A stretch of 64,000 bases of DNA from a virus: positions 12,088-76,087 of IMG/VR virus record IMGVR_UViG_3300025030_000080. The stretch is one strand, 5' to 3'. This document shows, one piece after another, positions 711 to 64,000 of the stretch. How positions within the stretch are numbered: the stretch's first letter is position 1; each line of letters starts with the position of its first letter. A program made the position numbers and the translations under genes. The notes under the pieces are model-generated. The model made no database searches. It was not told the origin of the DNA and was given only the letters and a program-made list of their open reading frames with translations.

Positions 711-1781
711 TTACTCTTGCTTGCTCATAGAAGCAACCATGATATGTTGAAACTTTTCAGAAGAAAATAAAAGGGACTTCTTAGTAGGAGATAAACGGAA
801 TTGACGAGTAATTCCAAGAATCTTTTTGAAAAAATCAGGTTGTACCTTAATTTGCATTCCTTCTTCGAAGAAATCCTTTTTCCATTCCACTCCATCAATA
901 ATCTCTCCAGCTTCCTTTCCTGCCCTAATTTCTAAATTCCCCTTTGAATAGGAAAGAAATACTCTGGACAAGGATTCCCAATTATCTCCTTCTCCACTAG
1001 CTAAAATTTTAGCTCTTTCCAACGGAGCTTCCATTCCTTTTGGAAACTCTAAAGGATCGGCTTTCATATCAAATTTCATAGATTCAAATAACCCCGTAAT
1101 CTTCTTGAAGGGGTAATCCCCTGCTAAAATGCGAGAACTATATATAGGACCACCTTCATTTGAGAAATGAACCCAAGCTTTTGATAAAGCCATAATTTCA
1201 AATACTGGTTCTAATTTTAAAAGTCCCTCCACTGTCTTGATAGGAAGAGTAAATGCGCTATTCACCGCTTCTAACATAGTATATACAGATACACGGTAGT
1301 TATCAGTAGAAACAGCTTTATTTTCAAAGAAATGAACTCCTGCGAGAGGCCCTAAAGCTGGTCCTGTTCCAGCCCCGAAGGAGCACAATTCTAATCCCAC
1401 TTGGAAATCTTTGGGGAGGTAAAACCATTCTAATCCGTCCGTTTGAACAGCCCAAGCCCTCTCAAGAGAACTAGTTATTTGTTCCTTTTGAAGAGGGTTC
1501 ATTTTGAGAGTAGTTCTTCCCCCCTTAATTTGAAACTTTCCCTCTTCTGTCAATTTCATATCTATTTCTTCAGCGTCCATTTTGGATAAAACTTTGTATA
1601 ATTCCTCTGCTCGTACTGCTGTTCGAATTTTTGTTTCTAATGGAAATGATACGCTGATATCTTCCTTGTACGAACGAACCCAATCTTCATCGAATAGGAT
1701 AAAATCCGATCCAATTGCACTAGACTTGTCAATTCCCATCATTACGGATTTAATGGCTAGTAATAATTCAGACTTTTTCAT
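711..1781 (-). CDS. dnaN: DNA polymerase sliding clamp, beta-clamp-like
   Basis: 356 aa, typical beta-clamp size; STDNYR matches the ATDxxRL motif; SRILAGDYP matches the SRLIxGxYP motif. Confidence 0.75.
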   Translation of the reverse strand: MKKSELLLAIKSVMMGIDKSSAIGSDFILFDEDWVRSYKEDISVSFPLETKIRTAVRAEELYKVLSKMDAEEIDMKLTEEGKFQIKGGRTTLKMNPLQKEQITSSLERAWAVQTDGLEWFYLPKDFQVGLELCSFGAGTGPALGPLAGVHFFENKAVSTDNYRVSVYTMLEAVNSAFTLPIKTVEGLLKLEPVFEIMALSKAWVHFSNEGGPIYSSRILAGDYPFKKITGLFESMKFDMKADPLEFPKGMEAPLERAKILASGEGDNWESLSRVFLSYSKGNLEIRAGKEAGEIIDGVEWKKDFFEEGMQIKVQPDFFKKILGITRQFRLSPTKKSLLFSSEKFQHIMVASMSKQE

Positions 1782-1999
1782 TTTTTTGCCTCCATTGATT
1801 TAGATTCTTCATTTATAAGACGATTTAAATACCATTGGGCTTTCTTTAAATCCTCTAATTTTTTCCCTTTATGAGGAGCACGACATAAATATTTTACGAC
1901 ATTGCCTCCAAGAAAATCTAATTTTTGATCTAATATAAAATCAATAACTTCAATTTTCCCAGTAGTATAATGAGATGGATGATTAATTTGATCTTTCAT
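1778..1999 (-). CDS. DUF3310 family protein (T7 gp1.7-like)
   Basis: INHPSHY..IEVID..GNVVKYLCRAPHKG..EDLKKAQWYL signature. Confidence 0.85.
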   Translation of the reverse strand: MKDQINHPSHYTTGKIEVIDFILDQKLDFLGGNVVKYLCRAPHKGKKLEDLKKAQWYLNRLINEESKSMEAKK

Positions 2000-2751
2000 T
2001 CTCCTTCTCCTCCTACAAAAATATCGTCAAAAACAATAAGAAACGTTTTCTTAAATCTTTCTAGCATAGGAATAGTAATCTCTCTCATTTGAGGATGAGC
2101 TTTCGAAGAAGTTCTCAAACGAAAGAAATGCCGCCATTCACGAATATTAAAGGTGATTACAATTTCCGTTTTCAAACTATTAGGAAGCACCGATCGAGCT
2201 TCTTGGGGATTAGCATTATGTTGAAGCAACTCCATATAAGAATTTTCAGCAGTTTGGCACGCTGTATACCAATGATAAAAACGAGTTCCTGAATTTAATG
2301 GTAAATTTTCTGCATGCATTTTTCCAATGGCAGCGTCCTTGGTATATCCTTTTAAAATAAGATCATTAAATGTTTCATAAGCTATTTGATACCAAATAGG
2401 CAGAATAACCGTTATTTCTTTACTATTTCCATAGTTACAATATCGGGTAGATTCTTGACTATAGCTTGCTATTCTATGACGAACTATTTCATGAGATACA
2501 CCACGATCACAAATTACTCTAACTGTTATTTTTTCATGCTCAAGAACCGATTCGTGCCCGTTTTTTATAATCATTTGAACAAATTTAGCCGCAGAATCAA
2601 TCGTTATTTTATCTTCTGATTTATAGCAAGTTCGTCCATACTTTTCTAATTTTGCGAGTAAATCATCTCCGTGATAATGATATTTTGTTTCATACCTTGG
2701 GCACTCTATTTCTTCATCTTCAAATTTCCACCAAGGAGAGATAATTTTCAT
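1996..2751 (-). CDS. thyX: FAD-dependent thymidylate synthase
   Basis: ThyX motif RHRIASYSQESTR, plus GHESVLEH, EARSVLP and AHPQMR. Confidence 0.95.
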   Translation of the reverse strand: MKIISPWWKFEDEEIECPRYETKYHYHGDDLLAKLEKYGRTCYKSEDKITIDSAAKFVQMIIKNGHESVLEHEKITVRVICDRGVSHEIVRHRIASYSQESTRYCNYGNSKEITVILPIWYQIAYETFNDLILKGYTKDAAIGKMHAENLPLNSGTRFYHWYTACQTAENSYMELLQHNANPQEARSVLPNSLKTEIVITFNIREWRHFFRLRTSSKAHPQMREITIPMLERFKKTFLIVFDDIFVGGEGE

Positions 2752-2752
2752 T

Positions 2753-3565
2753 TCAATCTCCTATTTTAACATAAGAATAAATTTCTCTTTTTTCCACAGG
2801 ACAAAGTTTATCTTTAAATATTCTCAAGCTTTCTATCCCCATAATTCCTCCATCATTAACTAATTTATTTTGATTCAAAATAACGGGGTCTGTATAAAAT
2901 AAATATCTTTGGTATTCATTCAAAAATTTAATATTTCTAGAAAATGAAAATCGGAAGTTAATATAAAAATAATTGGAATCCCAAATATTGATTCCAAGAA
3001 TATATCCATTTTTATCTACCAAAATTTTCCTATTATTTCCATTAAAAATATAATTAGTCATAACTTCATCATCATGAATTTCTTGATTTCCTTCTTTATT
3101 TTTTAACCATTCTATGAATAAATCTTTTAGTTGATTTTCATGATTATCATTCGCTTCAATATACTGCAAAGGGGAATTCCCATACCGTCCAGGAAATTTA
3201 CGGATATTCTTTCGGAAAACTTGAAATTTGTTTCCAGTTAGATCTAGGAAATGACGAGGGTTATAAATATGTTCTAATTCCAAAAATTCTTTTTTATAAT
3301 TAGAAGGCATAGACCAATTGGGAAAACTAGCCCATATATGAGTAGCCCAATTTTGGTAATCTCCGCTTATGCTATTTCCATTGGGGAGTAATTCCCCCGT
3401 ATTCATATTTATTGGGGGGAATAAAATCCATTCGTTGTGTTTCCAATAAATAAAATCACCCGTAATTTCCTCTTTAATTTTAGCTCTTTGAAAATATTCT
3501 TCAGAGCAGGGAAAAGTAGGAATTATCTTATATTTTTTTAACAATTCCAAATATTGGTTTTTCAA
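2753..3565 (-). CDS. DUF2156/MprF C-terminal-like GNAT-fold transferase (putatively aminoacyl-tRNA dependent)
   Basis: LDLTGNKFQVFRKNIRKF and C-terminal VNDGGIMGIESLRIFKDKLCP resemble the DUF2156 motifs L.G.KF..KRN..N.F and IN.E.DLG..GLR..K..Y.P. Confidence 0.55.
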   Translation of the reverse strand: MKNQYLELLKKYKIIPTFPCSEEYFQRAKIKEEITGDFIYWKHNEWILFPPINMNTGELLPNGNSISGDYQNWATHIWASFPNWSMPSNYKKEFLELEHIYNPRHFLDLTGNKFQVFRKNIRKFPGRYGNSPLQYIEANDNHENQLKDLFIEWLKNKEGNQEIHDDEVMTNYIFNGNNRKILVDKNGYILGINIWDSNYFYINFRFSFSRNIKFLNEYQRYLFYTDPVILNQNKLVNDGGIMGIESLRIFKDKLCPVEKREIYSYVKIGD

Positions 3566-4059
3566 ATTCCCTCCATTTTTTCTGATCGAAGGATTTCTAT
3601 ATCAGTTCCTTCTTCAAGAATAAATACTTTTATTTTTCCTTTCATTTCAGCAGGTAAATTATCTTCCACCATCTTTTTGATTCTTTCTGATCGTTCCATG
3701 CTAATTTTTTGTTCAATTTTGATAACTATTAAATCATTTTCACGAACTTCTAATGTTTGGACACTTTTAACAAAATCAATTTCGTTCATTTTTTCCTCCA
3801 TCATCTTTGTTGGTGAATTAGACCACCCACACCCAAACCAATGTTTACAGGGTCCATTTGTTTTACAGTAGGGGCAAGGACCATCTATATTATTCCAGGG
3901 TCGATTTATTTTTTTAATTATAGAATTCAGTTCCTCCGATTCGCAGATCCCGCATAGGGCAAATGGAGGTATTTCATGAATGCAATTAGAGAGTCTCATT
4001 TTTTTCCATAATTTTGATCGCGGCACGTAAGGAGCAATTGGTACATTCCAATGAGTCAA
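3562..4059 (-). CDS. hypothetical protein, Cys-rich N-terminus; start uncertain
   Basis: ORF tiles the operon but overlaps the upstream ORF. Confidence 0.45.
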   Translation of the reverse strand: MTHWNVPIAPYVPRSKLWKKMRLSNCIHEIPPFALCGICESEELNSIIKKINRPWNNIDGPCPYCKTNGPCKHWFGCGWSNSPTKMMEEKMNEIDFVKSVQTLEVRENDLIVIKIEQKISMERSERIKKMVEDNLPAEMKGKIKVFILEEGTDIEILRSEKMEGI

Positions 4060-9829: not shown

Positions 9830-10478
9830 TCACCGTACCAAATTTTCCAACATTTCTAGACGGAAATCGGAACTTTCAATATATCTCCAAATTATGTTTT
9901 CCTCTCGATCTCTTCCATATGGTTCCATTCCTTGGGCCCAATCCGGAAAATAAGCCGGATTGCTCATTCTTAAATTCCACGAGTTCTTAACTTCTTTCAT
10001 CAAAGTTTCTGATAACCACCCTCCACGTTCCTCTACGAAAGTGTTATATTCTCCCCACGTTACGGGTCGGGGGGCGTTGTTTCGAACAAACCTAGCTGCA
10101 ATCATATTGTTTCCGTAGGAGAATCCTCCACCTAAAGGAAGATAGATGTCAGATATAGAACAGCAAATATCGTCGTCATTGATAGGAGAGTTGCCAAAAT
10201 CAAAAGTGGATGAAGAGAATCCCTGATTTTTCATTAATTTCATAAATTCCCCTAAGACTAGGGAACCTAGCCACTGACTATCTGACATTATAAGAAACAT
10301 TCGATGGAAATCTATCCCTAACATTTCCATTTGGCGCTTTACTCCGGGGGCGGAAGCGGAATAACTATATGTATCGAAAGTAATGTGCTTGATTCCAATT
10401 TCCTTTACTCTACTGATCCATTCTTCCACTGCATCTTTTTCATCGTTTACGAAAATCATTAAGGGTTCGATCCTAGCC

Positions 10479-10500
10479 ACCACCCTAACACCACCCTAAC
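10479..10500. repeat. 11-bp tandem duplication (ACCACCCTAAC x2) causing a frameshift
   Basis: read directly at 10479-10489 and 10490-10500. Confidence 0.95.
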
Positions 10501-10971
10501 CCCTGCATCTACAAGAGCTTTTGCAGCAAGTAAGCGTTGGGAGAAGGAAGGTGCCCCAGGCTCTAACTTTTTATTTAAAGCATCATCAGAAGATATCATA
10601 GTCATATGGACAGCAGAACCGGCCTTATTATCTGCCAAAGCTCTAACGTAGTCTTCTCTACCGATTAACGCTGATTTTGTGTTCACCATAATAGGATAAA
10701 CTTGATCTGATAAATAACGCATGAAATTCAAACTAATTCCTTTTTGCGCTTCGATAGGAAGAAAATCTTCAAATCGAATTCCTAGACGGATGGGAATTTG
10801 AAGACTTATTGCTTTTGGTAATTCTGGTCCATCAATCTTTTGGCCTCGAAATTTCATTAATTTATCCATCTCCGTTCGGAAGTATTCCGGTCGGCAATGG
10901 CGTATTCCAATTTCTTTGGGATTATCAAAAAATGATGTATATAATGATGATCGGAATGAATCTGCAAAACA

Positions 10972-11394
10972 ATTGTGAACTAAAATCCCCTCCGCGAAAT
11001 AATTATTATTGGGCACGCATTCAAAATTATAAACTATTTTTTTATTGCTAGTTTTTGCTCTATATATAGATTCAATTCTTCTCCATGCCCATTTATTAGA
11101 ATTATTGGGGGGATAAAAAACAATCATATCATGAATACTTAATTGTCCAGCATCTATCCATCCTCTACTAGTAAATACAGGATGTTCTAAAGTAAGTTTT
11201 AAAATTTTTTCTTTTATTTTGATAACTATCAAATCTTCTGCGGTTCGACTCATTATTTTTGTAACTACTGACTTTTCTGATTCTAAGTGAGTTCTGTAAG
11301 TTTTTAATGAAACTACCAAATCTCCTTCTTTGATATCCTTAATATTCTTTTTCTTTCCGCCCCACATTTGTATTTTAGTTAATGGCGGCAGACA
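10972..11394 (-). mobile_element. 141-aa mini-intein without endonuclease, inside the CxxxCxxC motif
   Basis: starts CLPPLT, block B TLEHP, block F VYNFEC..NYFAEG, ends VHN followed by Cys +1. Confidence 0.92.
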
Positions 11395-11688
11395 ATATTT
11401 GCACTGGTAACTGCAAGATAGGGCATCGTAAGTATCTGAATTTAAAGGAAGTGGACAATGAGCGGCTCTTAATGAAACTTCAATAAATGAAGTAATTTCC
11501 TCTTTATTTAGCATTCGCTGTTTAACTTCAAATTTTTCGCTATCGAATGAAAATTCGGAATAATTTACTTTACGGCCTTTCTCACGAACTAATCCTTTAT
11601 GCTTCTCCATTGATTCGAGTTGAGATCTACGAGGGATAATGGTTTTGACTATTTCGCGCAACTCCCAGTAATCTTTAAATATAGTCAT

Positions 11689-16055: not shown

Positions 16056-16778
16056 TCAGTTAACGGTGAACGATCCATTTGCTACTGTAATAATTTCCAT
16101 CTTGCTGAGCAACGACACTCCGCATTTGGCTACTGCAGCGGATTCCTTAATATTACTTTTCCCTCCCTGATCTGCGTAAGACTGATCAGCAGCATTAACC
16201 AACTCCTCTAAAGTCCCCGTTTTCAACGAGAGAAGAGTATCCGCCAAAACTGTCCAACGACTAAATGACTTGGGAGCCGGGGGAACACGCTTGATTCTTT
16301 CTTTCTCCGGTTTTGGAGCTTTAGGAGCAGCCGGAGTTTTAGCGACAGTAGGAGCCGTGGGAGCAGGAGTTGCTGCTGTAGGAGTGGCAACGGGGGCTAC
16401 GGGAGCGGCGGGGGCAGGGGTAGCTGCAGAACGCCCAACACGACGGGCTACGGGAGGGGGCGGGGGAGCAGGAGGTTCGGGTTCAGGTTCCGGTTCAGGT
16501 TCCGGCTCAGGAGTGATCGGAGCTTCCTCCACCGGAGTTTCCGGAGTTGATTCTTCCTGATCTAACCCCAACGTGGTAATAATATCGTTGTACATGTTGA
16601 TAATATTTGCGTTCGATGACCCCGGAGCATCCCCTTCGGCCTTTTCCACTGCATCGAGATATGCCGGGATCAGCATCTCCTTTGAAATCTTGTCGGCGTT
16701 GTTAATCCCAATTTCAGTAGCACAAGCAATGAGCTTTGAATGTACGATTTTCTTCAAAAGTTTCGGATCGAATTTCAT
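16056..16778 (-). CDS. putative DNA-binding protein with Pro/Ala/Glu linker and C-terminal winged-helix-like domain (family with 55320 and 63041)
   Basis: RBS GGAGG before MKFDPK; (PE)n and PAA linker; FSR..AD..Y..N.KE..V motif shared with the two paralogues. Confidence 0.65.
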   Translation of the reverse strand: MKFDPKLLKKIVHSKLIACATEIGINNADKISKEMLIPAYLDAVEKAEGDAPGSSNANIINMYNDIITTLGLDQEESTPETPVEEAPITPEPEPEPEPEPEPPAPPPPPVARRVGRSAATPAPAAPVAPVATPTAATPAPTAPTVAKTPAAPKAPKPEKERIKRVPPAPKSFSRWTVLADTLLSLKTGTLEELVNAADQSYADQGGKSNIKESAAVAKCGVSLLSKMEIITVANGSFTVN

Positions 16779-16890
16779 GTAGTTCTCCCTCCGTTCGGAA
16801 TTTGTAAGACAACTACAATCTTCTACAGGAATAGCCACTATCTGATACTTCATCTCACCCACCCCTTCTGGCTTGGTTTCCCGTGTACTT

Positions 16891-16918
16891 ATTACTACAG
16901 GAGCTAAGCCTAAATCAA
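16891..16918 (-). promoter_or_regulatory. putative phage promoter TTGATT-N12-CTGTAGTAAT
   Basis: conserved bipartite motif, intergenic. Confidence 0.55.
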
Positions 16919-16997
16919 TATTATTTTTTATGAACAATTATTATACCTTTTGATTGATTATTTTAAATTTCTTCCTTTTCATTATCTGATGGGTAAA

Positions 16998-34269: not shown

Positions 34270-36288
34270 TCAGAAGTTAATTTTGATGGTACGAGAAAAA
34301 CTCCCTTTGACTCGACAGAGCACACTATTACGTTGTGTACTAGAAAAACCAATACCACTAAGTTGGTTATTAGATTCCTCCGTTTTCATCTTGGAACCTA
34401 CAATTTCGAATACTTTTCTATTAGTATCAAATTCACTTTTGAGAAATTCATTGAAAAACCCACGGGCCTTTCCTTCATTTAAGCATCCATCTATCATAAA
34501 GAAGAAGTGTTTATTACCTACTGTTTTATCATCCCAATAATTAGGAGATAACATTAGAATGTTGACATTATGGAAAGTTTGAGTAGGAATTCCCCATACC
34601 TCCCTAACTGATTGGGAAGATGGCAGGGATTTGATTATTTCGATACCCTTGACATGTGAGTATTTAATTTCTGCAACTGTAATTGTTTCATTATGCTTGA
34701 CTGGTTTATCATAAGTAAATCTATAAATAGTTCCTAACCAGTCCATTTCAACTTCAAATCCTACATTGGTTGATTCTCTCCTGTTATAGTTATGAACTAG
34801 TAAATAATAACTACCTTCGCACATTTTTCTCTTATCTGGATAAAATATATTCTCGACAGGTTCACGAGTAAATCCGCTTCCAGCATTCATATCTACATCA
34901 AGTTGTCCACCGCCTAGGGGGGAAGGTCCCTTATTACCAAAATATATTTCATTGCCTTTAGGCTCTTTCATATGGAGGTCTAAATCATCGTGGTTATGCC
35001 ATGCTAATCGGTTGCACCAATCTCCAGAAACATTTCCCCCTGCCTTCTTTACTCTTTCTTTGATAGAGTCGGCCAATTCTCCGTTATAAGACCAACTAAA
35101 ATTATTGGACCATTTAAATAGTCTTCCAGCAGTCGGATCTACTGGAGCTACCAAACTTACCAAATTCCCTGCATGACGATTTTCAAACATAACTTCGATT
35201 GAATTAACTTTAGGAATGATATCTGATATAAATTTATCAATGGTGACTTCCTCTATCTTATCAAGATTCTTCGTTTTCTCAGAAACTCCCCCGGAGATTT
35301 CATCAAATACATTATTAGTCATTTTCTTTCGTGATTCTCTATTAGCAAATATAATGTTATTTACTGTGATATCATTGATTGTTGCATACCTACGTTCAAG
35401 GGCCGAAGTGAGTCCCATTTCTTCAATCTTATTTTTGGCTTGTTCTATCATGGCCTTAGTAACGATGGCCGTGGGTCGTTTGTAATTCGTTGGGGCAACT
35501 TTTGATTCAAAGGAAGCCACAGCTATATCCATATCTTTTCCTTCGGAAAGATCTACCAAAAGAGTTCCAATAACGGTACTGCGTATGCGAGATATAGATG
35601 GTTGAATTTTTTTGATTTGAGACCATACGAAAGAATCTTTATCTTCGTGGGGTTTTAATTTATTGGTTCTTTTCTTTAACGTCATAAAACTTTCAACTAC
35701 AAATTTATGTTCCTCTCCACGATACAGAGAATTCTGCGCTATCAACTCCAAGACGGTATCAAGAGATTCGTCGGTGATTTCTTCCAGACTACGAAGTAAT
35801 ACATCATGGGTTGCTCTGGAATCCGACAATTTAGGACCAATATCTATCTTTTTGCATACGTATTCCTCGGGGATATTGATAAAAAAGTGCTCCCAAGTTT
35901 TTACTTGATCCATTAATTGCTGGAAATTTTTATCTGTTCCAGCAGTACGCTCTGTATGAAAAAATACATTTTCGATAGGGAAAGTTTTAACCAAATTAGC
36001 CATAGCATCAGCAACAACTTGGTAATGTTCAACTCCTACCTGAACATCCCAAATACTTTCTATTTTTCCGTTGATAATGGCAACGGTATTACCTACAGCC
36101 CTAATAAATTGTTTACAACATTGGCAATCATGCTCTGTTCTCTCTCGATAGATGGGATTAGATCCATCAGGAAAACTCCCCAGATAGGTACTCCAGAGTA
36201 AATCCTTATCAACTTGTACACGAAATAAATCATGCTTTCTCATTTTATCAAATTGTTTGCTCACTGCTACTTTAAAATGGTTGAACAT
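34270..36288 (-). CDS. large conserved protein with YfaP/DUF2135-like domain
   Basis: HDCQCCKQF N-terminal motif; WHNHDDLDLH..P..IYF..GQLDVDMN..VENI. Confidence 0.7.
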   Translation of the reverse strand: MFNHFKVAVSKQFDKMRKHDLFRVQVDKDLLWSTYLGSFPDGSNPIYRERTEHDCQCCKQFIRAVGNTVAIINGKIESIWDVQVGVEHYQVVADAMANLVKTFPIENVFFHTERTAGTDKNFQQLMDQVKTWEHFFINIPEEYVCKKIDIGPKLSDSRATHDVLLRSLEEITDESLDTVLELIAQNSLYRGEEHKFVVESFMTLKKRTNKLKPHEDKDSFVWSQIKKIQPSISRIRSTVIGTLLVDLSEGKDMDIAVASFESKVAPTNYKRPTAIVTKAMIEQAKNKIEEMGLTSALERRYATINDITVNNIIFANRESRKKMTNNVFDEISGGVSEKTKNLDKIEEVTIDKFISDIIPKVNSIEVMFENRHAGNLVSLVAPVDPTAGRLFKWSNNFSWSYNGELADSIKERVKKAGGNVSGDWCNRLAWHNHDDLDLHMKEPKGNEIYFGNKGPSPLGGGQLDVDMNAGSGFTREPVENIFYPDKRKMCEGSYYLLVHNYNRRESTNVGFEVEMDWLGTIYRFTYDKPVKHNETITVAEIKYSHVKGIEIIKSLPSSQSVREVWGIPTQTFHNVNILMLSPNYWDDKTVGNKHFFFMIDGCLNEGKARGFFNEFLKSEFDTNRKVFEIVGSKMKTEESNNQLSGIGFSSTQRNSVLCRVKGSFSRTIKINF

Positions 36289-36315: not shown

Positions 36316-36343
36316 AATACTACAGAAGTTTCATCGTTTTCAC
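36316..36343 (-). promoter_or_regulatory. putative phage promoter GTGAAA-N12-CTGTAGTATT
   Basis: motif lies just upstream of the RBS of the 672-aa gene. Confidence 0.55.
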
Positions 36344-36837
36344 CCCTCTTCGGACTCCTTCTCCTTGAACTCCGTCCAAAATTTCTTTACGTCTGAAGTA
36401 GACCACCCTTTGTACTTTCGAAGGTATTTGGAAAGTCCTATCTTAAAATCATTATGACGAATTAAATCAATAAATTCATTTGGTGCGGATAAAATTACAT
36501 CTACTACTTCTTTCATTTCTTTTGATAAACTAACATATTTTTCTAACATTTTTCTCGGATCTCTACCTAGCATTTCTTCCATCTCCGCAAAAGATAATTC
36601 CTCCCCAGTTCTTTTCAATGCTTTTTTCTTTTCAATCATATTAAGAAAATGTTGTCTAATATGATTTGATAATGCCGCTTCAAATGGACAACAAAGCCCA
36701 TATTTCTTTTCTTCCTCAATTACTTCCATAAAACATACGAATCCTTCCCCCACTAAGTCTTCCATTTCTTGTTTGTTTGGTGAGAATTTAAAAGCCATTC
36801 CAAATATTATTCCTTTGTAATTAGTCCAGTCTCTCAT
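36340..36837 (-). CDS. sigma-70 region-2-like factor
   Basis: MAFKF..EMEDLVGEGFVCFME..F.AAL...IR. Confidence 0.55.
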   Translation of the reverse strand: MRDWTNYKGIIFGMAFKFSPNKQEMEDLVGEGFVCFMEVIEEEKKYGLCCPFEAALSNHIRQHFLNMIEKKKALKRTGEELSFAEMEEMLGRDPRKMLEKYVSLSKEMKEVVDVILSAPNEFIDLIRHNDFKIGLSKYLRKYKGWSTSDVKKFWTEFKEKESEEG

Positions 36838-37586
36838 TTTTTGCCCTCCTTTATATCTATCCAAAGTTTCATTAATCCTATGGTTTGTTTGGGGACTTTT
36901 GCCCCTGAGAAATCTATTTTGGTTCCGGTAAGAAAATCTGATAATAAACTAAGTGCTTTCATTTCATTTAGTAAAATATCTGAATCCTCTTGAGAAGATG
37001 ACGCATCTATGGCCCCAGCAATTGCTGCTTTAAATCTTAAATCTTCGTCTGTAAGCATCCAATGATTTTTAGTTACCTCCATCGCTGCCTTAACTTTTGC
37101 TACCAAAGTAAATTTTTCTTTCGCCGCTTCTGATGCTTCTGTAACTGCAATCATAAATTTAACGTCCATTTTTGCCCCCCTTACTTTTGTATTCCTCCAC
37201 TTCAATCATAATATGAGATAATATCTTTCCCCCAACTACTGATTTAATTTTGAGTGGCGTTTCTCCCAACCAAATTTCTAACTCTCCGTATTTGGCTGGA
37301 GGTGCTTTTTCTCCGCCAAATTCTTTTATTCTTTCTGAAAGAATATCTCTGAATTTAATTATTTTTAATTTCATTTATTTATCTTTTTGCTTCTTACTTC
37401 TAAAATTACAGAATGTACATTATAAAATATTTCATCTTTTTCCCATCTAATGGTTAGTCTATTTCCTTGTAAGGTCACTCCAAACATAGTTGCTATTTTG
37501 GATCTAAGCATTTCTAAAATAGGTTGAGCAAATTGCAATGTTTCATCGTCGTAAATATCTATGGATAATTCTTTATCTCTTTTCAT
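36834..37586 (-). other. three small hypothetical CDSs (36834..37205, 37159..37374, 37371..37586)
   Basis: tiling ORFs. Confidence 0.55.
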
Positions 37587-46634: not shown

Positions 46635-47489
46635 TTACGCTACCTCCTCTTTTGCTTTTTCTTCTGGTTTAATAATATGATCAAACGCTTTCTGCGCTTT
46701 ACTTGCGGCAGAAATGACCAAGTTGGGTTCTTCCTTCAACCTTTTCATCCAACTTTGGATATAAGCAATTGAATTTTCAAACGGAGATTTAATTCCTACC
46801 TTGCTATATAGAAATACAGATCCTATTTCTGCTATTAATTCCTCCTTGCTATAGTCAGGAGAACCAAACGGAGGAAAAGTATCTCGATCAAATCCATCTC
46901 TATCGGCTCTATTTGGGTGTCCCGTAGAATGTACCATTTCATGAAAAAGAACTTCATAATAATATTCAGAAGATTCAAACGTTTTCATATCAGGCATATA
47001 GATTACATCTGTACGAGGGGCATATGCAGCCCGATCCGATTGAAATATTTTGGGTTTATCAGAGTATCCTTCCACCACTTTTTCACATTCTTCAATAGGG
47101 TTAATAATCCTGGATAATGTTGGAGGAATCTTACTTTCAATTCCCTCGCAATCTTCTACATTAAATACCTTGTAATATCTAAGCATAGGGACCGTTTTCA
47201 ATCCATCCTTACTATTTTCATCTAAGTATTCCAAACTTTTGAAATAGACTACCATTGCTCCTTGCGTTCCCTTTTTTACATTTCCTCCTAAATTTGACAC
47301 TTGTGTATACGTTGCCCAATATGGACTACTTTTTCCTTCTAATGTTAGAAGAATCACGTTGATACCTCTATAATCCTTTTTACTAATCAAATTCTTGGGA
47401 GAGGAAATGGCCCAAGGCTTATGCCAGGGGACAACTCCCTTTTCAAGTTGATCTATAATTTTTTGGGCGATAATTTCATTCACATGCAT
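46635..47489 (-). CDS. ardC: ArdC-like anti-restriction ssDNA-binding protein (DUF1738 + zincin)
   Basis: PWHKPW, YRGIN, WATY.Q, VFNV, FHEMVHSTGH, Y..EELIAE, YI.SW. Confidence 0.9.
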   Translation of the reverse strand: MHVNEIIAQKIIDQLEKGVVPWHKPWAISSPKNLISKKDYRGINVILLTLEGKSSPYWATYTQVSNLGGNVKKGTQGAMVVYFKSLEYLDENSKDGLKTVPMLRYYKVFNVEDCEGIESKIPPTLSRIINPIEECEKVVEGYSDKPKIFQSDRAAYAPRTDVIYMPDMKTFESSEYYYEVLFHEMVHSTGHPNRADRDGFDRDTFPPFGSPDYSKEELIAEIGSVFLYSKVGIKSPFENSIAYIQSWMKRLKEEPNLVISAASKAQKAFDHIIKPEEKAKEEVA

Positions 47490-55319: not shown

Positions 55320-55766
55320 TTAGGCGACCTTTGTGAACTTGTCCCCGTCCTTGGTCATGTAACCCATCCCGACCAGGAACTGCACCGCGAACTGAGCCAC
55401 CGCCTTGGCTTCCTTCGGGTTGTTGGCCTTCTCGCTGGCCTTCTTCGTGGCGTAGAGAGAGTTGGCTCCGTCCACGATCTCCACCATCGTCAGAGGAGCC
55501 GTCATCCCCTTGATGAATTCGGTGGTGGCGTCCGCACGGCTGTATCCCGGAGTCAGACCCGCAGCCTTGGCCGCAGCCTTGGCCGCCTTCTCCGCTTCAC
55601 GAGCCGCCTTGATCTCATCCTTCAACTTCTTCTCCTGAGCCTTCAGTGCCGCGACCTGCGCTTTGATTTCTTCCTTCGTCATGATTTCGCCCTCCTTCGG
55701 GGTGGGTTCCTTGGTCCCTTGAACCAAGGTCAGGTTGGATTTCATTGAACGCTCTGCTTTCGCCAT
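55320..55766 (-). CDS. coiled-coil + winged-helix-like DNA-binding protein (alternative start 55682)
   Basis: Lys/Ala coiled coil; YSR..AN.LY..NNPKE..V; strongly GC3-biased codons. Confidence 0.7.
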   Translation of the reverse strand: MAKAERSMKSNLTLVQGTKEPTPKEGEIMTKEEIKAQVAALKAQEKKLKDEIKAAREAEKAAKAAAKAAGLTPGYSRADATTEFIKGMTAPLTMVEIVDGANSLYATKKASEKANNPKEAKAVAQFAVQFLVGMGYMTKDGDKFTKVA

Positions 55767-56046
55767 ACATTCCCTCCGTTCAAACATTTAATTTGTTTTG
55801 GGAATGCTCTGTCCCGGATCTAAAGTCATGAATTTGGCTCCGGGGAAATCCCTTTCGTACCAATACATCTTTCCGATAAGACAGATTTCATTTCCCTGAG
55901 TATGAATCACCCGATACTTCCTACCTCCTTTCGGCATACCGATGATCCGGTGCGCTCCCTTGATATCCTCTACTTCCTTGGGAAATGCCTTCTTTGTCGT
56001 AGTTCCCATTTTTCCTCCTTTCCAGTTAGATGTTCGCTCCTTAACT

Positions 56047-58233: not shown

Positions 58234-60525
58234 TTAAATGTTCGCTCCTACAGGATCTTCTCCATTTCCATAATACCGATCAATCCAAGTCGATTTCGGC
58301 TTCTGAGGATGACATGTGGTTCCATACACTCTACCTCGGCCATAGTACCGAACAGGGGTACCAACTTCCAGATACGCTTTACATTCCTTACAAAAGGCCG
58401 GAAACTTCAACCGGATTTTCACCATTGCTTTCCTCCCCTGTGGATTTGATGAACAGGATAGCATTATGAAATTGCTTCAGAAATCTTTTTGCTTGCTTGG
58501 AATTCATCTTTGGGGATCGGACATTGGTAAATATTACAAATCTCCCCTTGGTAAATCGGTTGAGGATGACTTCTTGAGTGCTATTCATTTTACTTTTTTC
58601 TCCCTCTTTTCAATTCTGGCAACCTTGGCCAAAAGTTGCTTCACCACTCCAGGCTGCTTGTTAGAACGAGCAATCCTTATCTGATCTCCTAATTCAGTAA
58701 GCACCCTTGCATTTTTCTCCCTCAAAGTTTCTTCCATCACCTTACCTCCCTTTTTCTTTTGGTAATTCCGTCTTCCCAGTGATATGATAATAAAGAAGAA
58801 AATCAAACGCTTCCCTTTGAAGGTTGAACGTACCAATAATCCGATCCGTTTCCCATACCTGGGGAGCGTTGGGGAAGAGTTGCCTCATCTCCCCCTCCGC
58901 TATCACCCAGGGTTTGTGGACACGGGAACCTTCATATTTGATTTTGATCATCCCGTTTCCTCCATCAACGGAGGACACGGTTGGAGCAGATTCTCGATGC
59001 ATTGGGGGCAAGTCTTGGTATCGTCCCCCAACTCCGCGATGTAACACTTCCGGCATTCCACGCACCGTTTGATTTTCCCTTCTTCCTTGCTCTTGTGGGA
59101 AATCTTCTTGTAACCCATCTCCATTCTCCTTTCTTTCTCTTGGGGCCTCTTTACGAGACCAAGTTGTAAGGGAGCGTGAACAACCAACCGCTCTCCTCAA
59201 CGACTGCGTACCACATTCCGTACCTACGATTCCAAAACTTGAGGATGACGTTAAATTTCGTTTTCATTTGGCTCACCCCCTTACTTTTGGAAAGATTCCA
59301 AAATCTTTCTCGCCTCTTCCCCCAAACGGAAATTCTCTTGGATAATTTGAAGACATTTGTCACAAGTCGGACTCTTGGAAAATTGAGGGGTTGAAAATCT
59401 CTTACCACAAGTCGCCTTGAACGTCTTTTGATTCTCAACGGCGAATGGGATCACTTCCTTGAAAACTTTAAATGTTTCTGAGAAATGAGTATCCATTCTG
59501 ATCTCCTTAATCCCGGTCAGCGTATTTTGCTGCCCAACGTGCCCAACCGTCACGGTGTTTCCTCTCTTCCCTTGGGGAACGTTCGCGTATGATTCTGTTC
59601 CCCTCTGCCGATACCTCATGGTGGCAGGTCCTACCCTGGGACCCCTCTTGTTTGCGAATCCTACGCAATTCTCCCTTGGTCATTTCCCTTCTCCTTGGTC
59701 CTTGTCTTTTTCGATCCGATTCTCCAACGAATGATATTCTTCGTAAACTTTCCAATACAACTCGGTGGTCCACCAATTTCCCTTTTCATCTTGGGGCTGG
59801 AAAAGCCCCGCTTTGGAAAGAACGTAGAGAACTTCATTCACATCCTCTAAACCGAACAGAGGCTTTTCCACGCAATCTTGAAATACTTCGGGGATAAAGT
59901 CCATTTCTACGTCGCTTTCTTCGTAGGAATCGTGAAAGATAATTCCTATGATCTGATCTACTTTTTTCTTATCCATTTTATTTCACCCCCTTTCATTTAT
60001 GACGTATCTACCTACCTACCTGCAACCATCGTTCCGGTAGAGGTTCCCTTTTGGAAAAGAAACCCCTCGTCGCAAAGATGGTTATATTTAATCTTCCGTC
60101 CATCCCATCTCCCCGGTTCCGGGCCACACCGTTCATTTCTCCTTTCTTTCTTCCTCCAATGGAGTTATTTCCGGTTCCCCATTTTCTTCGGCTTTACTTC
60201 CTTCCAAATTGTAAAGATTAGTAACTACCGAATCCAAATTACTTTTCGCCGTAGTCGATCCATTACTACTTAGTCCTAACGATGTATGGCAATGAGAAGG
60301 TCCACATCTGGATTGGCGTCGAATCGCGCTTGATACCGATTTGGACGGGGATTTTACGATCTCCGTCCAATAATTCGTTTTCCCCAAACTAGCCGTAAAT
60401 CCCATCGTCTTTACTACATCCTCTTTTCTTGGTTCGCAATCTCCACAAACTCTAAACTTCCTCCCGATATGTTTGGGATGTTTATCGCTAAATTCGCTTC
60501 CACATTCTTTACAAATGATTAACAT
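58234..60525 (-). other. cluster of very small early CDSs (boundaries uncertain), including 59680..59976 and 60133..60525
   Basis: multiple short RBS-led ORFs. Confidence 0.45.
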
Positions 60526-60541
60526 TTTGGTTCCCTTTTTC

Positions 60542-61012
60542 CTATCGGGTTAAAGAACCAAGAATAACTTCTCCTAAATAACCATGGTAATCGCCCTCGG
60601 AATCTTTTTCCGTTCCGACGAAAAACCATACATCTCCCTCCGGGGAAAAGGAGTAGGATTCATTTTCGTCCCCTTCGTCCTCCTTAAAACCCTTTATTTC
60701 GAGAACGATAACGAGATCATTACGACTTTCGGCCCATTCCGGATTTAAGTCCCCGCGAAGAACATTTCGAAGGTTAACGGCGTAGTCCACTGCGATTTCC
60801 GCCGAGGAAAAAGTCCCTACCATAAAATTTTTATTACCATTATAAAGATTTACGGAGAAAACGGAATTGAAATGCTTTCGTTCGTTTAGGAAATCTACCA
60901 AATCCGTTTCGGAGTTTTCTTTCTTTTCAAAATTAACTTTTACTTTTACTTTTTCCATCTCATTCCCCTCCGTTTTAGTATGAACCAAAAGTTTTTTTTC
61001 TCCCCTTAACAT
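60542..61012 (-). CDS. acidic hypothetical protein, CA/TG-depleted
   Basis: likely start MEKVK with RBS GGAGG; no Gln or Cys. Confidence 0.6.
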   Translation of the reverse strand: MLRGEKKLLVHTKTEGNEMEKVKVKVNFEKKENSETDLVDFLNERKHFNSVFSVNLYNGNKNFMVGTFSSAEIAVDYAVNLRNVLRGDLNPEWAESRNDLVIVLEIKGFKEDEGDENESYSFSPEGDVWFFVGTEKDSEGDYHGYLGEVILGSLTR

Positions 61013-61361
61013 TGATAGCAGATTCCGTTCGCGTCCAATTCGGCCTTCCGTTTACATTTGGGGCAAAAAGAGTATTCGATACCTACCTCGCCATTCTCTC
61101 GGGAATCCTCCCCGGATTCCAGTTTCTCCTCTAACTCGCGGATTTTCATTTCTAATTCTTCGATTTCCATTTGGAGCGTTTTACTTTTCGGTGGTTCCAT
61201 TTTCTTTTTCCTCTTTTTTGATTCCACAGCGAAGGATAAAACTTTCGAAATCAGACGAAGGATTTTCTACGGAATAAATCAGTTTTCCGTTCCGGTAAAA
61301 ACTGAATTTTTCTCCTACTTTCCGGTACGTTTCCATTTCCCTTCCCCTTTATTTTATTTTG

Positions 61362-61763
61362 TTAGACTCCGTACTTTCTAATATAATTGATATCAAAAAC
61401 CGTTCCTTTCCCTCCTCGTTCCTCTTCGAAACCATTCTTTCTAAGTTCGGCCCTCGTTGGAAAGGAATAAAAACCGTCGAGGTAATGTAAACAACTTTCT
61501 TCGGTAGAAAGACTTTTGGTTAAGGAATAAACCGATTCCCCCACAAAAAACTCGAAAATTACTACGGAATCGGGGTAACTCGTAAAACGATGGACTCCGT
61601 TTATCGTCCCGGAATAAATGGAAGCGTTACCGGAAGAAACTAATATTCTACCATAAAAACCGCCTTTCTTTTCTTCCAAAAAGTATCCGGCTCTAATACC
61701 TTTCCATTTACTTCGGTCTACTTCTAACTTTTCCAATCTTTCCTTAAGAGTTCTTTTATTCAT
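61362..61763 (-). CDS. hypothetical protein, CA/TG-depleted
   Basis: RBS; 133 aa; no Gln. Confidence 0.6.
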   Translation of the reverse strand: MNKRTLKERLEKLEVDRSKWKGIRAGYFLEEKKGGFYGRILVSSGNASIYSGTINGVHRFTSYPDSVVIFEFFVGESVYSLTKSLSTEESCLHYLDGFYSFPTRAELRKNGFEEERGGKGTVFDINYIRKYGV

Positions 61764-61990
61764 TTCCTTCTCCCTTTCGTCCTAAAGGACGAAGATTAGA
61801 ATTACGAACATCCAGAAAGCTCCGGCGATTAAAACCATCGTTCCGATCTCTTTCGCGGTTTCCATTTTCTTCTCCTTTCCCCCCGGAATTTGGTTTAAAG
61901 AGAAACCGGGGAAAGTTGGTCGCCCGATCCCGTCCGGGCGGATATATCGGGGATATTATACCCTAAAACCGAAACGTGTATTATATAGTT

Positions 61991-62776
61991 TATAAGTATC
62001 GGATTTATAAGGGGATTTTCTAATCTATATACCCTATAAACTTAGGGTTCCTTTATAACCTATCGAATATAAACGGTTTTTCGTCGCGGCTTTTATCGTT
62101 ATAAGTACCCGAAATATAAGGGGAAAATATCGAATTATTTCGGCCAGAAACGTTCGTTATAGGGTACCTTGGGCGTTACCTACCTAAAACGTACTTGGTC
62201 CAGACCTATCTAAGCGTACTTGGCTGTATACCTATATTTTTTTCGTTTTGGTTGGAAATTTTTCGAAAATTATTAGTAAAGGTTACCGTTTCGTAATCGT
62301 TTTATAAGGTAAAATGTTTCGATAGGTAATACGATATTTTATAGAATAAAACGAATAATAGGAAAAATTATCGGCCTAATTTTGTTTATAAGGCATTTTC
62401 TTTCTTCGGTAATAGGATATACGGGATATTTATAAGTAGGCGAAAAATAACGATTTCCCCGCGTTCTATTTTAAAAGATCGTCGTTTATAGGTCGATTAA
62501 ATACGGCGAAAAACCGTTTATTATCGAATAGTTATAGAGAAAAATAAAGTATATAAACGAATAAGGATATAGATTAGATAAAATATCCCTTATAATTCGG
62601 GTAGTTATAGGGTATAGATAAACGGAAACGAATATATAGGACGGAACGAATAGCCCTTTATTATTAAGTAGTTATAAAGTAGCCCTAAGACTATCTACCG
62701 GATAGAGTATTATTTCCCTTTTATTATCGAATAGTTATAAGCGATTCTAATTCCCCTTTATAATTAAATAGATACG
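61991..62776. repeat. degenerate ~24-bp repeats in inverted arrays within a non-coding region
   Basis: TTTATTATCGAATAGTTATA exact at 62517 and 62720; variants at about 62588, 62654 and 62753; opposite-orientation variants at about 61991, 62054 and 62100. Confidence 0.6.
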
Positions 62777-63040
62777 AGGGAAGAAAAACGAAAATATATT
62801 TTCTATCCGAAAAGGGAAATTCTATAAATATCCGAATCTATTACCGTTTCGGGAATAGGTATAAACGGGGTACCAGTTTAATATTTCCCTTTCGTTTTTA
62901 ATTCTTTTCCGGTATCGTATAGGTAGATAAAAAACGTTCCTTTAAATCCGATTATAAAGGCGCCCCCGAATTAGAACCGGACGGAATCCCTTACCGTACC
63001 GGAACCGTTAAAAGGGGAATTACCCCGGAAAGGTTAGAAA

Positions 63041-63445
63041 ATGAAAACCGAAAAAAGTAAGGCGGAATTAATCGCCGAATTAAACGATCTCCGTTCCGCT
63101 ATCGACGCGAAGAAAGCGGAGCGAAAGAGTCTCGCGGAGAAGGAAAAGACTCTCCGCGAATCCGCGAAAAACGCCGGGATCGTACTTTCGGAAACCTTTA
63201 CCCGTTCCGAATCCGTAGCGGTCGCGGTTTCTTCCCTCTCGAACGGCGAACCGTTCTCCCTCTCGGGAATCGCGGAAAAGGCGAATCGGATATTTATCGA
63301 AAGGGGAAAGAAGAATAACGGGAAGGAGTCCGAAACCGTTTCCCGTCTTCTTCTTCCGTTCGCGGTATCGATCGGACTCGTAGAGAAAACCGGAAAGGAC
63401 TCTTACCGGTTCGTTAGTCCGGTCGCGGGAAGGAAAGTAGCGTAA
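63041..63445 (+). CDS. coiled-coil + winged-helix-like protein; the only divergent gene; CA/TG-free
   Basis: followed by a terminator; similar to 55320 and 16056 (FTR..AN..F..NNGKE..V). Confidence 0.8.
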   Translation: MKTEKSKAELIAELNDLRSAIDAKKAERKSLAEKEKTLRESAKNAGIVLSETFTRSESVAVAVSSLSNGEPFSLSGIAEKANRIFIERGKKNNGKESETVSRLLLPFAVSIGLVEKTGKDSYRFVSPVAGRKVA

Positions 63446-63466
63446 AGAAAATTCGAGAGTAAGACG

Positions 63467-63500
63467 AACCCTCCGGACCGAAAATCCGGAGGGTTTTTTT
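63467..63500 (+). terminator. intrinsic terminator
   Basis: AACCCTCCGGA-CCGAAAA-TCCGGAGGGTT followed by a T tract. Confidence 0.9.
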
Positions 63501-63572
63501 ATTTCCGAAAATAAAAGTAAAACTGTTATTAGATTGATCCCGTAATCAAACAAAAAAAGTAGAAAATAAGAC

Positions 63573-63603
63573 AGGCTCAGGAGAATATCCCTGGGCCTTT
63601 TTT
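63573..63603 (+). terminator. second intrinsic terminator-like hairpin
   Basis: AGGCTCAGG..CCTGGGCCT followed by a T tract. Confidence 0.65.
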
Positions 63604-64000
63604 ATTGGCGAGAATCAGGTCAGATCAATAATAATCGAATTGGTATAGGAGAATGGTGGGGGAATGAAAGAGTAATGGGGAAGAGGGTTGGGGGAATAGA
63701 TTGGGGATGAAAGGTGCCCGCCACTCCCCATATCAAGTAAATTAAAAAATATTGTCAATTCTATCCCACATTTTATAAGCATACGGGATATCCCTATACT
63801 GTAAGGTAATTATTACAGATTTCCCGATAACAATCGTCAATCTCATTCCCCAAATATCCTCTCAGATTGATCAGTGTCATATCTAACTGAACGGGATATG
63901 GGAGATGGTGAAATAAGTCAACTGAATCAATCCTCGTTATCATATGATATGGATATACTACTGGTATGGGGATAGGGGGGAGAAAATCCCCCAATGGTCG

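What the first reader, a model, noticed from the sequence alone, without database searches (positions are those of the whole stretch)
60150..63530. CA/TG depletion is a one-sided gradient with a sharp right edge, suggesting the physical genome end
Seen: about 7 CA/TG per 60 nt in a sampled line at 59.4 kb, about 1-3 per 60 nt in most sampled lines of 60.5-62 kb, about 0 at 62.4-63.5 kb, then an abrupt return to normal after the terminator (63524 onward). Genes 60542 and 61362 lack Gln. Established: T5 and T7 have specialised first-entering ends. Inference: DNA enters from about 63.5 kb leftward, and the constraint relaxes once the earliest protein is made.
Basis: partly seen in the sequence, partly recalled or inferred. 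Interest (0 to 1): 0.8.

Follow-up and report, generated by a model that had tools for sequence, protein, structure and literature searches.

The report
CA/TG-free early zone in phage
An uncultured groundwater phage keeps its first-used control region and earliest genes almost free of the two-letter DNA step CA/TG, with a knife-sharp edge on one side and a 3.5-kb slope on the other, most likely so that this stretch escapes a chemical mark the phage seems to put at TG elsewhere on its DNA; that the sharp edge marks the physical end of the DNA is plausible but unproven.

Summary
Window 62395-63523 (1129 nt) holds 2 CA/TG where about 120 are expected. The right change point is exactly 63524, and the left side is best fitted by a linear ramp from 59200 to 62700.

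Three relatives (71% and 50% protein identity) keep the same void, the same edge after a shared terminator, and the same slope. They do so despite 21-42% DNA divergence, so selection maintains it.

The zone is a divergent immediate-early cassette. It has arrays of a conserved 25-bp promoter/operator-like repeat, a rightward coiled-coil plus winged-helix gene, and a leftward operon of small genes with no known relatives.

The contig end at 64000 is an assembly fork, not a genome end. In relatives, about 1 kb of non-coding DNA follows, then terS, terL and portal.

Statistics on 6-bp palindromes, with controls, suggest the bulk DNA is protected at CA/TG, as in phages that hypermodify thymine at TG. 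In unrelated Wifcevirus phages I verified a similar zone inside the PhageTerm-predicted terminal repeat, with its sharp edge about 180 nt from the terminus.

This scan has noted CA/TG-free early zones before on other phage DNA.

The parts
62395..63523 (.). Core CA/TG-free zone: 2 CA/TG in 1129 nt. It covers the rightward repeat array, one whole gene and its terminator.
59200..62700 (.). Ramp in which CA/TG density falls about linearly from 0.115 to 0.002 per nt along the leftward early operon. (A/G/T)CA is purged first; CCA/TGG is tolerated longest.
63041..63445 (+). Rightward immediate-early gene of 134 aa: a long N-terminal helix plus a C-terminal winged helix. It has no Cys, Trp, Gln or His and no internal Met. 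Two paralogues lie at 55320-55787(-) and 16056-16937(-).
63466..63505 (+). Intrinsic terminator (12-bp stem, T tract) followed by the conserved TTTATTTCCGAAA. CA/TG returns 19 nt later.
62507..62780 (+). Array of 4-5 rightward copies of the 25-bp repeat CCCTTTATTATCGAATAGTTATAAG, a promoter- or operator-like element found nowhere else in the 76 kb.
61984..62450 (-). Array of 3 leftward copies of the same repeat.
61782..61865 (-). First leftward ORF, a 27-aa hydrophobic peptide with a strong Shine-Dalgarno sequence (read from the sequence; conserved in L002, L003 and L029).
60133..61763 (-). Leftward early operon of small genes with no known relatives (61362-61763, 61181-61336, 61006-61227, 60542-61012, 60133-60525). 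There are no Pfam hits above cut-off and no informative PHROG hits.
63524..64000 (.). Right flank with normal CA/TG. It is non-coding and poorly conserved, and holds a second terminator-like hairpin (63573-63598) and a sigma-70-like TTGTCA-17-TATAAG (63753-63783, read by eye). The contig ends here at an assembly fork.

Best explanation
Window 60.1-63.5 kb is the immediate-early control cassette of a large uncultured groundwater phage. This record is a fragment that CheckV rates 76% complete, and contigs of about 131 kb carry the same protein.

Two opposed arrays of a conserved 25-bp repeat drive two units. One is a rightward one-gene unit encoding a dimer-type winged-helix DNA-binding protein, closed by an intrinsic terminator. 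The other is a leftward operon of small genes with no known relatives.

Shown: purifying selection on the double-stranded DNA bans the CA:TG step in this cassette. The ban is total in the 1.1-kb core. It relaxes linearly over about 3.5 kb along the leftward operon and stops within 20 nt after the rightward terminator.

Inferred, as the most likely reason: like M6, ViI, phiW-14, Pbunavirus F8/14-1 and Acinetobacter phage 15599, this phage places a bulky base modification at TG steps over its chromosome. A CA/TG-free cassette then stays unmarked on both strands. The parental DNA that must work first would be invisible to host nucleases that attack modified DNA, or readable by unmodified host RNA polymerase and early DNA-binding proteins, until early products take over.

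Inferred: the cassette lies at or near the last-packaged, first-ejected end of the virion DNA. The slope then reflects how long each stretch is exposed or needed before protection sets in.
For: Selection:
- The void holds on both strands, in coding and non-coding DNA.
- It persists through 198 and 388 substitutions per about 1 kb in relatives. Random placement of the same substitutions would create 55 and 90 CA/TG (minimum 37 and 68 in 2000 trials); 6 are observed.
- Relatives show the same edge and ramp.

Cassette anatomy.

TG-directed mark:
- In the 71-kb bulk, 6-bp palindromes containing CA/TG are not avoided (obs/exp 1.04). Others are avoided (0.85; CG-containing ones 0.35), Mann-Whitney p=0.0003, and no other dinucleotide class gives a signal.
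- The same exemption appears in F8, which is known to carry hypermodified T at TG (0.96 vs 0.73, p=0.03), and in Wifcevirus ECML-117 (0.94 vs 0.71, p=0.003).
- It does not appear in T7, lambda or T5 (p=0.49, 0.47, 0.67).
- TG-specific thymine hypermodification is documented in PMC6449724, PMC12191111, PMC13458397 and PMC13229309.
- Nucleases that attack hypermodified DNA early in infection, and a small phage inhibitor of them, are documented in PMC12191111.
- The genome carries ThyX, radical-SAM, DUF362 and nucleotide-sugar enzyme genes.

End position:
- terS, terL and portal start 1.3 kb right of the edge in relatives.
- In Wifcevirus the analogous zone lies in the 3673-bp PhageTerm-predicted terminal repeat, with its edge at about 3491.
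Against: - No modified base has been measured, and the palindrome statistic is indirect.
- No Tet_JBP, ParB_N, HMUDK_hel or aGPT-Pplase3 match was found in the 76-kb fragment. Pfam scans of about 40 ORFs found no known DNA-modifying transferase.
- Pbunavirus F8, which does modify T at TG, has no CA/TG-poor zone, so such a mark does not by itself demand a void.
- Modification in Wifcevirus is itself only inferred, from kinship to Pbunavirus and restriction resistance (PMC11990801).
- Termini of this phage are unmapped, and about 1 kb of DNA with normal CA/TG lies between the edge and terS in relatives.
- The edge coincides with a terminator, which a purely transcriptional constraint would also explain.
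Confidence: 0.5

Rival explanations
1. A host nuclease or other defence reads the plain, unmodified CA/TG step or a very short motif family containing it. The first-entering DNA is purged of it, and an early protein then neutralises the defence. No phage DNA modification is involved.
For: There is a ramp plus a sharp edge. There is precedent in T5, whose first-step-transfer repeat has no EcoRI site while the rest of the genome has six. The early genes have no known relatives, as is typical of host-takeover or anti-defence genes.
Against: No defence with a two-base DNA specificity is known, and the host would have to protect every CA/TG of its own DNA. If the bulk DNA were unprotected at CA/TG, palindromes containing CA/TG should be avoided as in T7, lambda and T5; here they are exempt. 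The zone tolerates 6-bp palindromes that the bulk avoids about 30-fold.
Confidence: 0.2
2. The constraint acts through transcription or on the RNA. Either early transcripts must lack CA and UG (for example, to escape host endoribonucleases or toxins), or the transcribed single-stranded DNA must lack TG. The void follows transcription-unit boundaries, not DNA entry.
For: The right edge lies 19 nt after an intrinsic terminator in the window, and just after the same shared terminator sequence in the two relatives. Nearly the whole void is transcribed from one or the other repeat array, if these are promoters.
Against: Both CA and TG vanish on the same strand, which an RNA-level reader would need two specificities to explain. 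No terminators break the leftward operon where the density ramps. In Mansfield the depletion runs about 270 nt past the annotated terminator.
Confidence: 0.1
3. The constraint is a physical or protein-binding property of DNA. CA:TG is the most flexible base step, so a zone without it is stiff or escapes host nucleoid proteins that kink CA/TG. That could serve ejection, packaging or promoter clearance.
For: The ban acts at the level of the double helix and is symmetric. The position is next to the packaging module.
Against: TA and CG, the other flexible pyrimidine-purine steps, are enriched rather than avoided. A 3.5-kb graded ramp through coding DNA, at the cost of five amino acids, is hard to justify mechanically. 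This model does not explain the palindrome exemption in the bulk.
Confidence: 0.07
4. A mutational process (RIP-like C-to-T or deaminase-type A-to-G at CA, on both strands) has erased CA/TG locally, without selection.
For: The replacement products TA and CG are enriched.
Against: The proteins remain conserved and foldable. The void survives 21-42% divergence with substitutions of all twelve base-change types. The edge is at the same homologous base in three lineages. Unrelated phages show the same feature.
Confidence: 0.03

Closest known systems
First-step-transfer (pre-early) terminal repeat of phage T5, and the T7 leader with tandem early promoters and gene 0.3 (ocr)
   Same: A block of earliest-expressed small genes with its own strong control elements. 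It is exposed in the cell before the rest of the genome, and its sequence is shaped by what can attack DNA at that moment. The T5 repeat has no EcoRI site while the rest of the genome has six.
   Different: T5, T7 and lambda show no CA/TG depletion anywhere (minimum obs/exp 0.72, 0.66 and 0.88). Here the avoided unit is a two-base step, not a 4-8-bp site. The zone carries palindromes that the rest of the genome avoids. Two-step transfer and a terminal position are not shown here.
TG-context thymine hypermodification of phages M6, ViI, phiW-14 (PMC6449724), Pbunavirus F8/14-1 (PMC12191111), A. baumannii phage 15599 (PMC13458397), and NTG-preferring phage T-dioxygenases (PMC13229309)
   Same: These are the only documented agents that read the TG step on both strands of phage DNA. 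The palindrome-exemption signature of F8 is shared by this phage. Hosts answer with nucleases that target hypermodified DNA early in infection, and phages answer with small inhibitors.
   Different: None of the known pathway genes was found in this fragment. No unmodified island has been described in those papers, as far as my searches reached. F8 itself has no CA/TG-poor zone.
CA/TG-poor divergent small-gene cassette in the direct terminal repeat of Wifcevirus phages (ECML-117, Mansfield, WFC, WFH). This is a feature noted by this scan and verified here, not one described in the literature I could find.
   Same: CA/TG is depleted 4-10-fold. The cassette has divergent small genes with no known relatives, whose products avoid Cys, Trp, Gln, His and internal Met, plus a terminator. 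There is a ramp on the leftward side and a sharp edge on the right, and terS lies within about 1.5 kb.
   Different: The proteins are unrelated and the two phage groups share no genes except a weak ThyX match. The Wifcevirus depletion is partial (0.1-0.4), the ramp is shorter (1.4 kb), and the gene order relative to terS differs. The terminal-repeat location is predicted by PhageTerm there and unknown here.

Membership tests
T5-type first-step-transfer / pre-early region | Lies in the terminal repeat at the end that enters the cell first | not testable with these tools
   Only assembled contigs were available, no raw reads.
T5-type first-step-transfer / pre-early region | Lacks the restriction sites that are selected against in this phage | tested here: not met
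   The zone holds ATCGAT, TCCGGA x2, ACCGGT and CGATCG, which together occur 7 times in the 71.6-kb bulk.
T5-type first-step-transfer / pre-early region | Cluster of small earliest genes behind several strong promoters | tested here: inconclusive
   There are seven or more copies of a conserved 25-bp repeat in two opposed arrays, and small genes with no known relatives. The repeat does not fit sigma-70 spacing, and there are no expression data.
TG-directed thymine hypermodification (5-hmdU kinase / aGPT-Pplase route) | [quoted passage not shown] | tested here: not met
   There is no HMUDK_hel (PF18723) or aGPT-Pplase3 (PF18746) match in the six-frame search of the 76-kb fragment, and none in about 40 ORFs scanned with Pfam. 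The fragment is about 76% of a genome, and aGPT-Pplase1/2 were not searched by accession.
TG-directed thymine modification (T-dioxygenase route) | Tet/JBP-type dioxygenase, with or without a ParB-like activator | tested here: not met
   No PF12851 or PF02195 match in the fragment. The PF12851 control rang in no control genome, so that search is weak.
TG-directed DNA modification (any chemistry) | Sites containing TG/CA are protected, so they are not selected against in the bulk genome | tested here: met
   CA/TG palindromes have obs/exp 1.04 versus 0.85 for others, p=0.0003. F8 and ECML-117 show the same pattern; T7, lambda and T5 do not. This evidence is indirect.
TG-directed DNA modification (any chemistry) | A modified base is physically present at TG in virion DNA | not testable with these tools
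   This needs LC-MS, restriction digests, or nanopore/SMRT signal on virion DNA.
Wifcevirus-type CA/TG-poor terminal cassette | At least 4-fold CA/TG depletion over a divergent small-gene cassette, with a ramp on one side and a sharp edge on the other | tested here: met
Wifcevirus-type CA/TG-poor terminal cassette | The cassette lies inside the direct terminal repeat, next to terS | tested here: inconclusive
   terS lies 1.3 kb to the right in relatives. No terminal repeat can be seen in collapsed assemblies. k-mer depth is 1.7-2x higher on 63315-64000 than on 60000-62729 in three runs, but co-occurring strains explain this equally well.

The most novel reading that the evidence does not exclude
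Phages that mark their DNA at TG keep an unmarked "landing strip". The first-ejected immediate-early cassette is written without any CA/TG, so that modification-dependent host nucleases (END-type, type IV) cannot see it until a small early inhibitor is made. The slope of the CA/TG ramp is then an evolutionary record of the speed and polarity of DNA entry, or of time to protection. Unrelated lineages (this groundwater phage, Wifcevirus, and others noted by the scan) reached the same solution independently.
Probability: 0.3. Interest if true: 0.9.

Novelty: new variant of a known kind. Interest (0 to 1): 0.78.

Why it matters
If this reading holds, raw sequence alone would give three things.
- A flag that a phage carries a TG-directed DNA modification, with no chemistry needed.
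- A pointer to its immediate-early genes, which are likely to include inhibitors of nucleases that target modified DNA.
- A pointer to the polarity, and possibly the terminus, of genome entry.

It would also add a new layer to the modification arms race. Besides marking DNA to escape classical restriction, phages would leave a chosen stretch unmarked to escape, or to function despite, modification-dependent defences.

A cultured E. coli phage genus, Wifcevirus, shows the same feature in a defined terminal repeat, so the idea can be tested directly at the bench.

Tried and rejected
- DNA search of the zone against 50,697 phage records found no match.
- Protein 60542-61012 has no relative in IMG/VR.
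- Direct or inverted terminal repeats of the contig: none. The RuvC-like ORF is cut at the contig start and does not continue across a joined end, so the record is a fragment.
- Read laying gave only Logan contigs. It listed no places where molecules begin or end, so it gave no terminus information. It did show that the break at 64000 is a fork with two unitigs going on. The depth step at 63315-64000 is not interpretable.
- TerL typing was not usable: the best hits are 26-35% identical terminases (the best from an unannotated faecal-sample phage, most of the rest from actinophages), too distant to predict a packaging mode.
- Alignment of the right flanks of three relatives is poorly conserved, with no clear cos- or pac-like block.
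- The repeat pattern search brought one chance hit, L027, with no depletion.
- P0004 as a query in IMG/VR found nothing.
- PDB sequence searches for three candidate modification proteins found nothing.
- Two guessed Pfam accessions turned out to be unrelated families, SNAD1 and SNAD2.
- The cassette proteins of Wifcevirus and of this phage share no similarity.
- Sigma-70 promoter counts in 55-64 kb are no higher than in shuffles.
- Literature searches found no paper describing a CA/TG-free zone.
Full report
**1. The observation**

In 500-nt windows, CA+TG stays at 40-74 (obs/exp 0.7-1.2) over the first 60 kb. It then falls to 39, 27, 28, 17, 11, 1 and 1, and jumps back to 53 in the last 500 nt.

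From 62395 to 63523 only two CA/TG remain: CA at 62874 and the TG of the ATG at 63042. A two-rate likelihood scan puts the right boundary at 63524, with 0.0018 versus 0.111 per nt. On the left, a linear ramp from 59200 to 62700 beats one or two steps by BIC.

CG and CC are about two-fold enriched, and TA is enriched in the non-coding part.

The gene at 63041-63445 has one Met (the start) and no Cys, Trp, Gln or His, and has no CA/TG at codon junctions. The leftward genes regain these residues one after another.

**2. What the DNA is**

The window is bases 12088-76087 of a single 76,087-nt IMG/VR virus record classed linear, which CheckV rates 76% complete. It has no terminal repeats, and a RuvC-like ORF is cut at its start.

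Almost all genes read leftward. They include:
- PolA with a UDG-like domain and an intein, a clamp loader with an intein, and RecA
- a gp32-like protein and a FEN-type exonuclease
- a sliding clamp, DnaB and further helicases, and a primase
- ThyX, DUF362 and an ArdC-like protein
- radical-SAM genes (weak hits)
- a nucleotide-sugar epimerase-like gene

The runs that hold the stretch are groundwater and soil metagenomes from 7 studies.

**3. Anatomy of the zone**

Between 61900 and 63040 there is no long ORF.

A 25-bp element, CCCTTTATTATCGAATAGTTATAAG, occurs 4-5 times pointing right (62507-62780) and 3 times pointing left (61984-62450). It occurs nowhere else in the 76 kb and is conserved in the relatives. 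Its two AT-rich halves are too close for sigma-70 spacing. It may be an unusual promoter, an operator, or both.

To the right lies one gene. Its product folds (pLDDT 86) into a 38-residue helix plus a winged helix. The Foldseek matches are weak but consistent: the DpnI winged-helix domain, Fur, Cdt1, forkhead, linker histone and Rok. Two paralogues sit elsewhere in the genome.

The gene ends in a strong intrinsic terminator at 63466-63505.

To the left run a 27-aa hydrophobic peptide gene and five small genes without any family match. No terminator breaks this operon.

**4. Relatives**

Orthologues of the winged-helix gene were found in IMG/VR and JGI contigs at 71% and 50% identity. All of these contigs have the same CA/TG void, the same left ramp (3.5 kb in L005, at least 4.6 kb in L003), and an edge just after the shared terminator plus TTTATTTCCGAAA.

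Over about 1 kb of the core, the window differs from L002 at 198 positions and from L003 at 388. Yet these zones hold 2, 6 and 6 CA/TG. Placing the same substitutions at random sites gives 55 and 90 on average, and never fewer than 37 and 68 in 2000 trials.

The ban is therefore maintained by selection on the duplex. It is neither a one-off mutational event nor an artefact.

In the ramp, (A/G/T)CA is depleted to 0.15-0.5 of the bulk level while CCA/TGG stays at 0.45-0.9. In the core all contexts are gone.

**5. Is the sharp edge the genome end?**

The contig end is not a genome end. In three runs the Logan unitig stops exactly at 64000, and in at least two of them shorter unitigs that overlap it by 30 nt run on, which is a graph fork.

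In L002 and L003 the DNA continues at least 10 kb with normal CA/TG. The order is about 1 kb of poorly conserved non-coding DNA, a small gene, terS, an endolysin, terL and portal.

So the zone is the junction between the leftward early/replication arm and the rightward packaging/structural arm. By the usual rule that packaging starts near the terminase genes and the last DNA in is the first out, this is where a first-entering end would be expected. This rests on established knowledge of lambda, T7 and SPP1, not on a test here. Collapsed assemblies cannot show an end.

The claim stays open.

**6. A lead from the scan's earlier notes, checked here**

Earlier notes said that E. coli Wifcevirus phages have a CA/TG-poor zone in their terminal repeat. 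I verified this.
- ECML-117 has obs/exp 0.29-0.58 at 6.5-8.5 kb, against about 1.2 elsewhere.
- That stretch maps to 1371-3739 of WFC and WFH, twice per record. In phage Mansfield it maps into the 3673-bp "direct terminal repeat predicted by PhageTerm".
- WFC and WFH were reported with repeats of about 3.7 kb (PMC6563267).
- In Mansfield the zone is again a divergent cassette of small genes with a terminator. It has a 1.4-kb ramp on the leftward side and an edge at about 3491, some 180 nt from the repeat's end, which is the right terminus of the virion DNA.

The proteins are unrelated to those here, and the genomes share only a weak ThyX match. The likeness is therefore convergent.

**7. What reads a two-base step?**

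General restriction avoidance is excluded. The zone contains ATCGAT, TCCGGA (twice), ACCGGT and CGATCG, which together occur 7 times in the other 71.6 kb. Only 2 of the 16 four-base palindromes contain CA/TG.

The documented agents with TG specificity are phage thymine hypermodification systems:
- M6, ViI and phiW-14 (PMC6449724)
- Pbunavirus F8 and 14-1 (PMC12191111)
- phage 15599 (PMC13458397)
- an NTG-preferring T-dioxygenase (PMC13229309)

I tested for such a mark indirectly. In the bulk genome, 6-bp palindromes with CA/TG are not avoided (196 observed, 188 expected). Those without are avoided (813 vs 961; CG-containing ones 48 vs 136), p=0.0003, and no other dinucleotide class behaves so.

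The positive control F8 and Wifcevirus ECML-117 show the same exemption (p=0.03 and 0.003). T7, lambda and T5 do not (p=0.49, 0.47, 0.67), and they have no CA/TG-poor zone.

This points to protection at CA/TG in the bulk DNA, and so to the zone being a mark-free island.

Why such an island pays is inferred:
- END nucleases attack hypermodified phage DNA early in infection, and a small phage protein inhibits them (PMC12191111). An unmarked early cassette would survive long enough to make such proteins.
- Alternatively, only the parental, fully marked DNA has to be read by unaided host polymerase, so only the first genes need to be clean.

**8. Caveats**
- No known TG-modification gene is present in this fragment. 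The candidate cluster (ThyX, radical SAM, DUF362, sugar-nucleotide enzyme) is of unknown chemistry.
- F8 modifies TG yet has no void.
- The right edge coincides with a terminator, so a transcription-bound constraint cannot be excluded.
- The palindrome test rests on six genomes.

**9. Verdict**

An early, probably first-exposed cassette under a time- or distance-graded constraint is the best reading. The constraint is more likely tied to the phage's own TG-directed mark than to a host enzyme reading plain CA/TG. The physical end is plausible (about 0.4-0.5) but untested.

The scan has seen CA/TG-free early zones on other phage DNA. I found no description of them in the searchable literature.

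Noticed in passing
L002 5440-5660 (equivalent of window about 62140-62260): The L002/L029 strain carries about 220 nt between the two repeat arrays that is TG-rich and CA-poor, with normal CA/TG density. The window's few residual TGs in the void (62170-62253) sit at the same place. It could be a small RNA gene or an insertion that is exempt from the ban.
   Followed up: no
window 1-59500 plus the 12 kb upstream (bulk genome): CG-containing 6-bp palindromes are strongly avoided (48 observed, 136 expected). ATCGAT occurs 1 time against 12.6 expected, GGATCC 4 against 13.4, and CGTACG, CCCGGG and ACCGGT 0 against about 5 each. This hints at the host's restriction repertoire.
   Followed up: partly
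L004 7423-11031(-), L004 5402-7387(-), window 10459-11688(-): Inteins or Hint domains interrupt the PolA gene (which also carries an N-terminal UDG-like domain), the clamp-loader gene, and a radical-SAM gene.
   Followed up: no
window 34270-36288(-): A 672-aa protein with no Pfam hit matches phrog_1735 end to end (E 2e-279). It is 56% identical to proteins of phiCbK-like Caulobacter phages, with hits in 559 phage records, many from Salmonella, Klebsiella, Dickeya and Serratia phages. It is highly conserved and of unknown function.
   Followed up: no
window 46635-47489(-) and 36340-36864(-): One is an ArdC-like anti-restriction protein (ArdcN plus a zincin peptidase domain). The other is a possible phage sigma factor (weak Sigma70_r2 hit, E 5e-4).
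   Followed up: no
window 63573-63598 and 63753-63783: A second terminator-like hairpin lies 70 nt after the first, followed by a sigma-70-like TTGTCA-17-TATAAG pointing right. G-rich blocks (GGGGATAGGGG...AAAATCCC) recur in the right flanks of all three relatives, although the flanks otherwise diverge.
   Followed up: partly
NC_007810 (Pseudomonas phage F8), whole genome: F8 is reported to carry hypermodified thymine at TG, yet it has no CA/TG-poor zone (minimum obs/exp 0.67 per 500 nt). Its distant relatives in Wifcevirus do have one. The void is therefore not an automatic consequence of a TG mark.
   Followed up: partly
window 60000-64000 in runs X1, X3, X5, X12: The zone is a hot spot of strain variation. 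Several short alternative unitigs occur (for example at 62700-62810), as do a strain that skips 61206-61786 and a flank swap right after 63511. Assemblies of related strains break inside or next to the zone (L001, L029, this record).
   Followed up: partly
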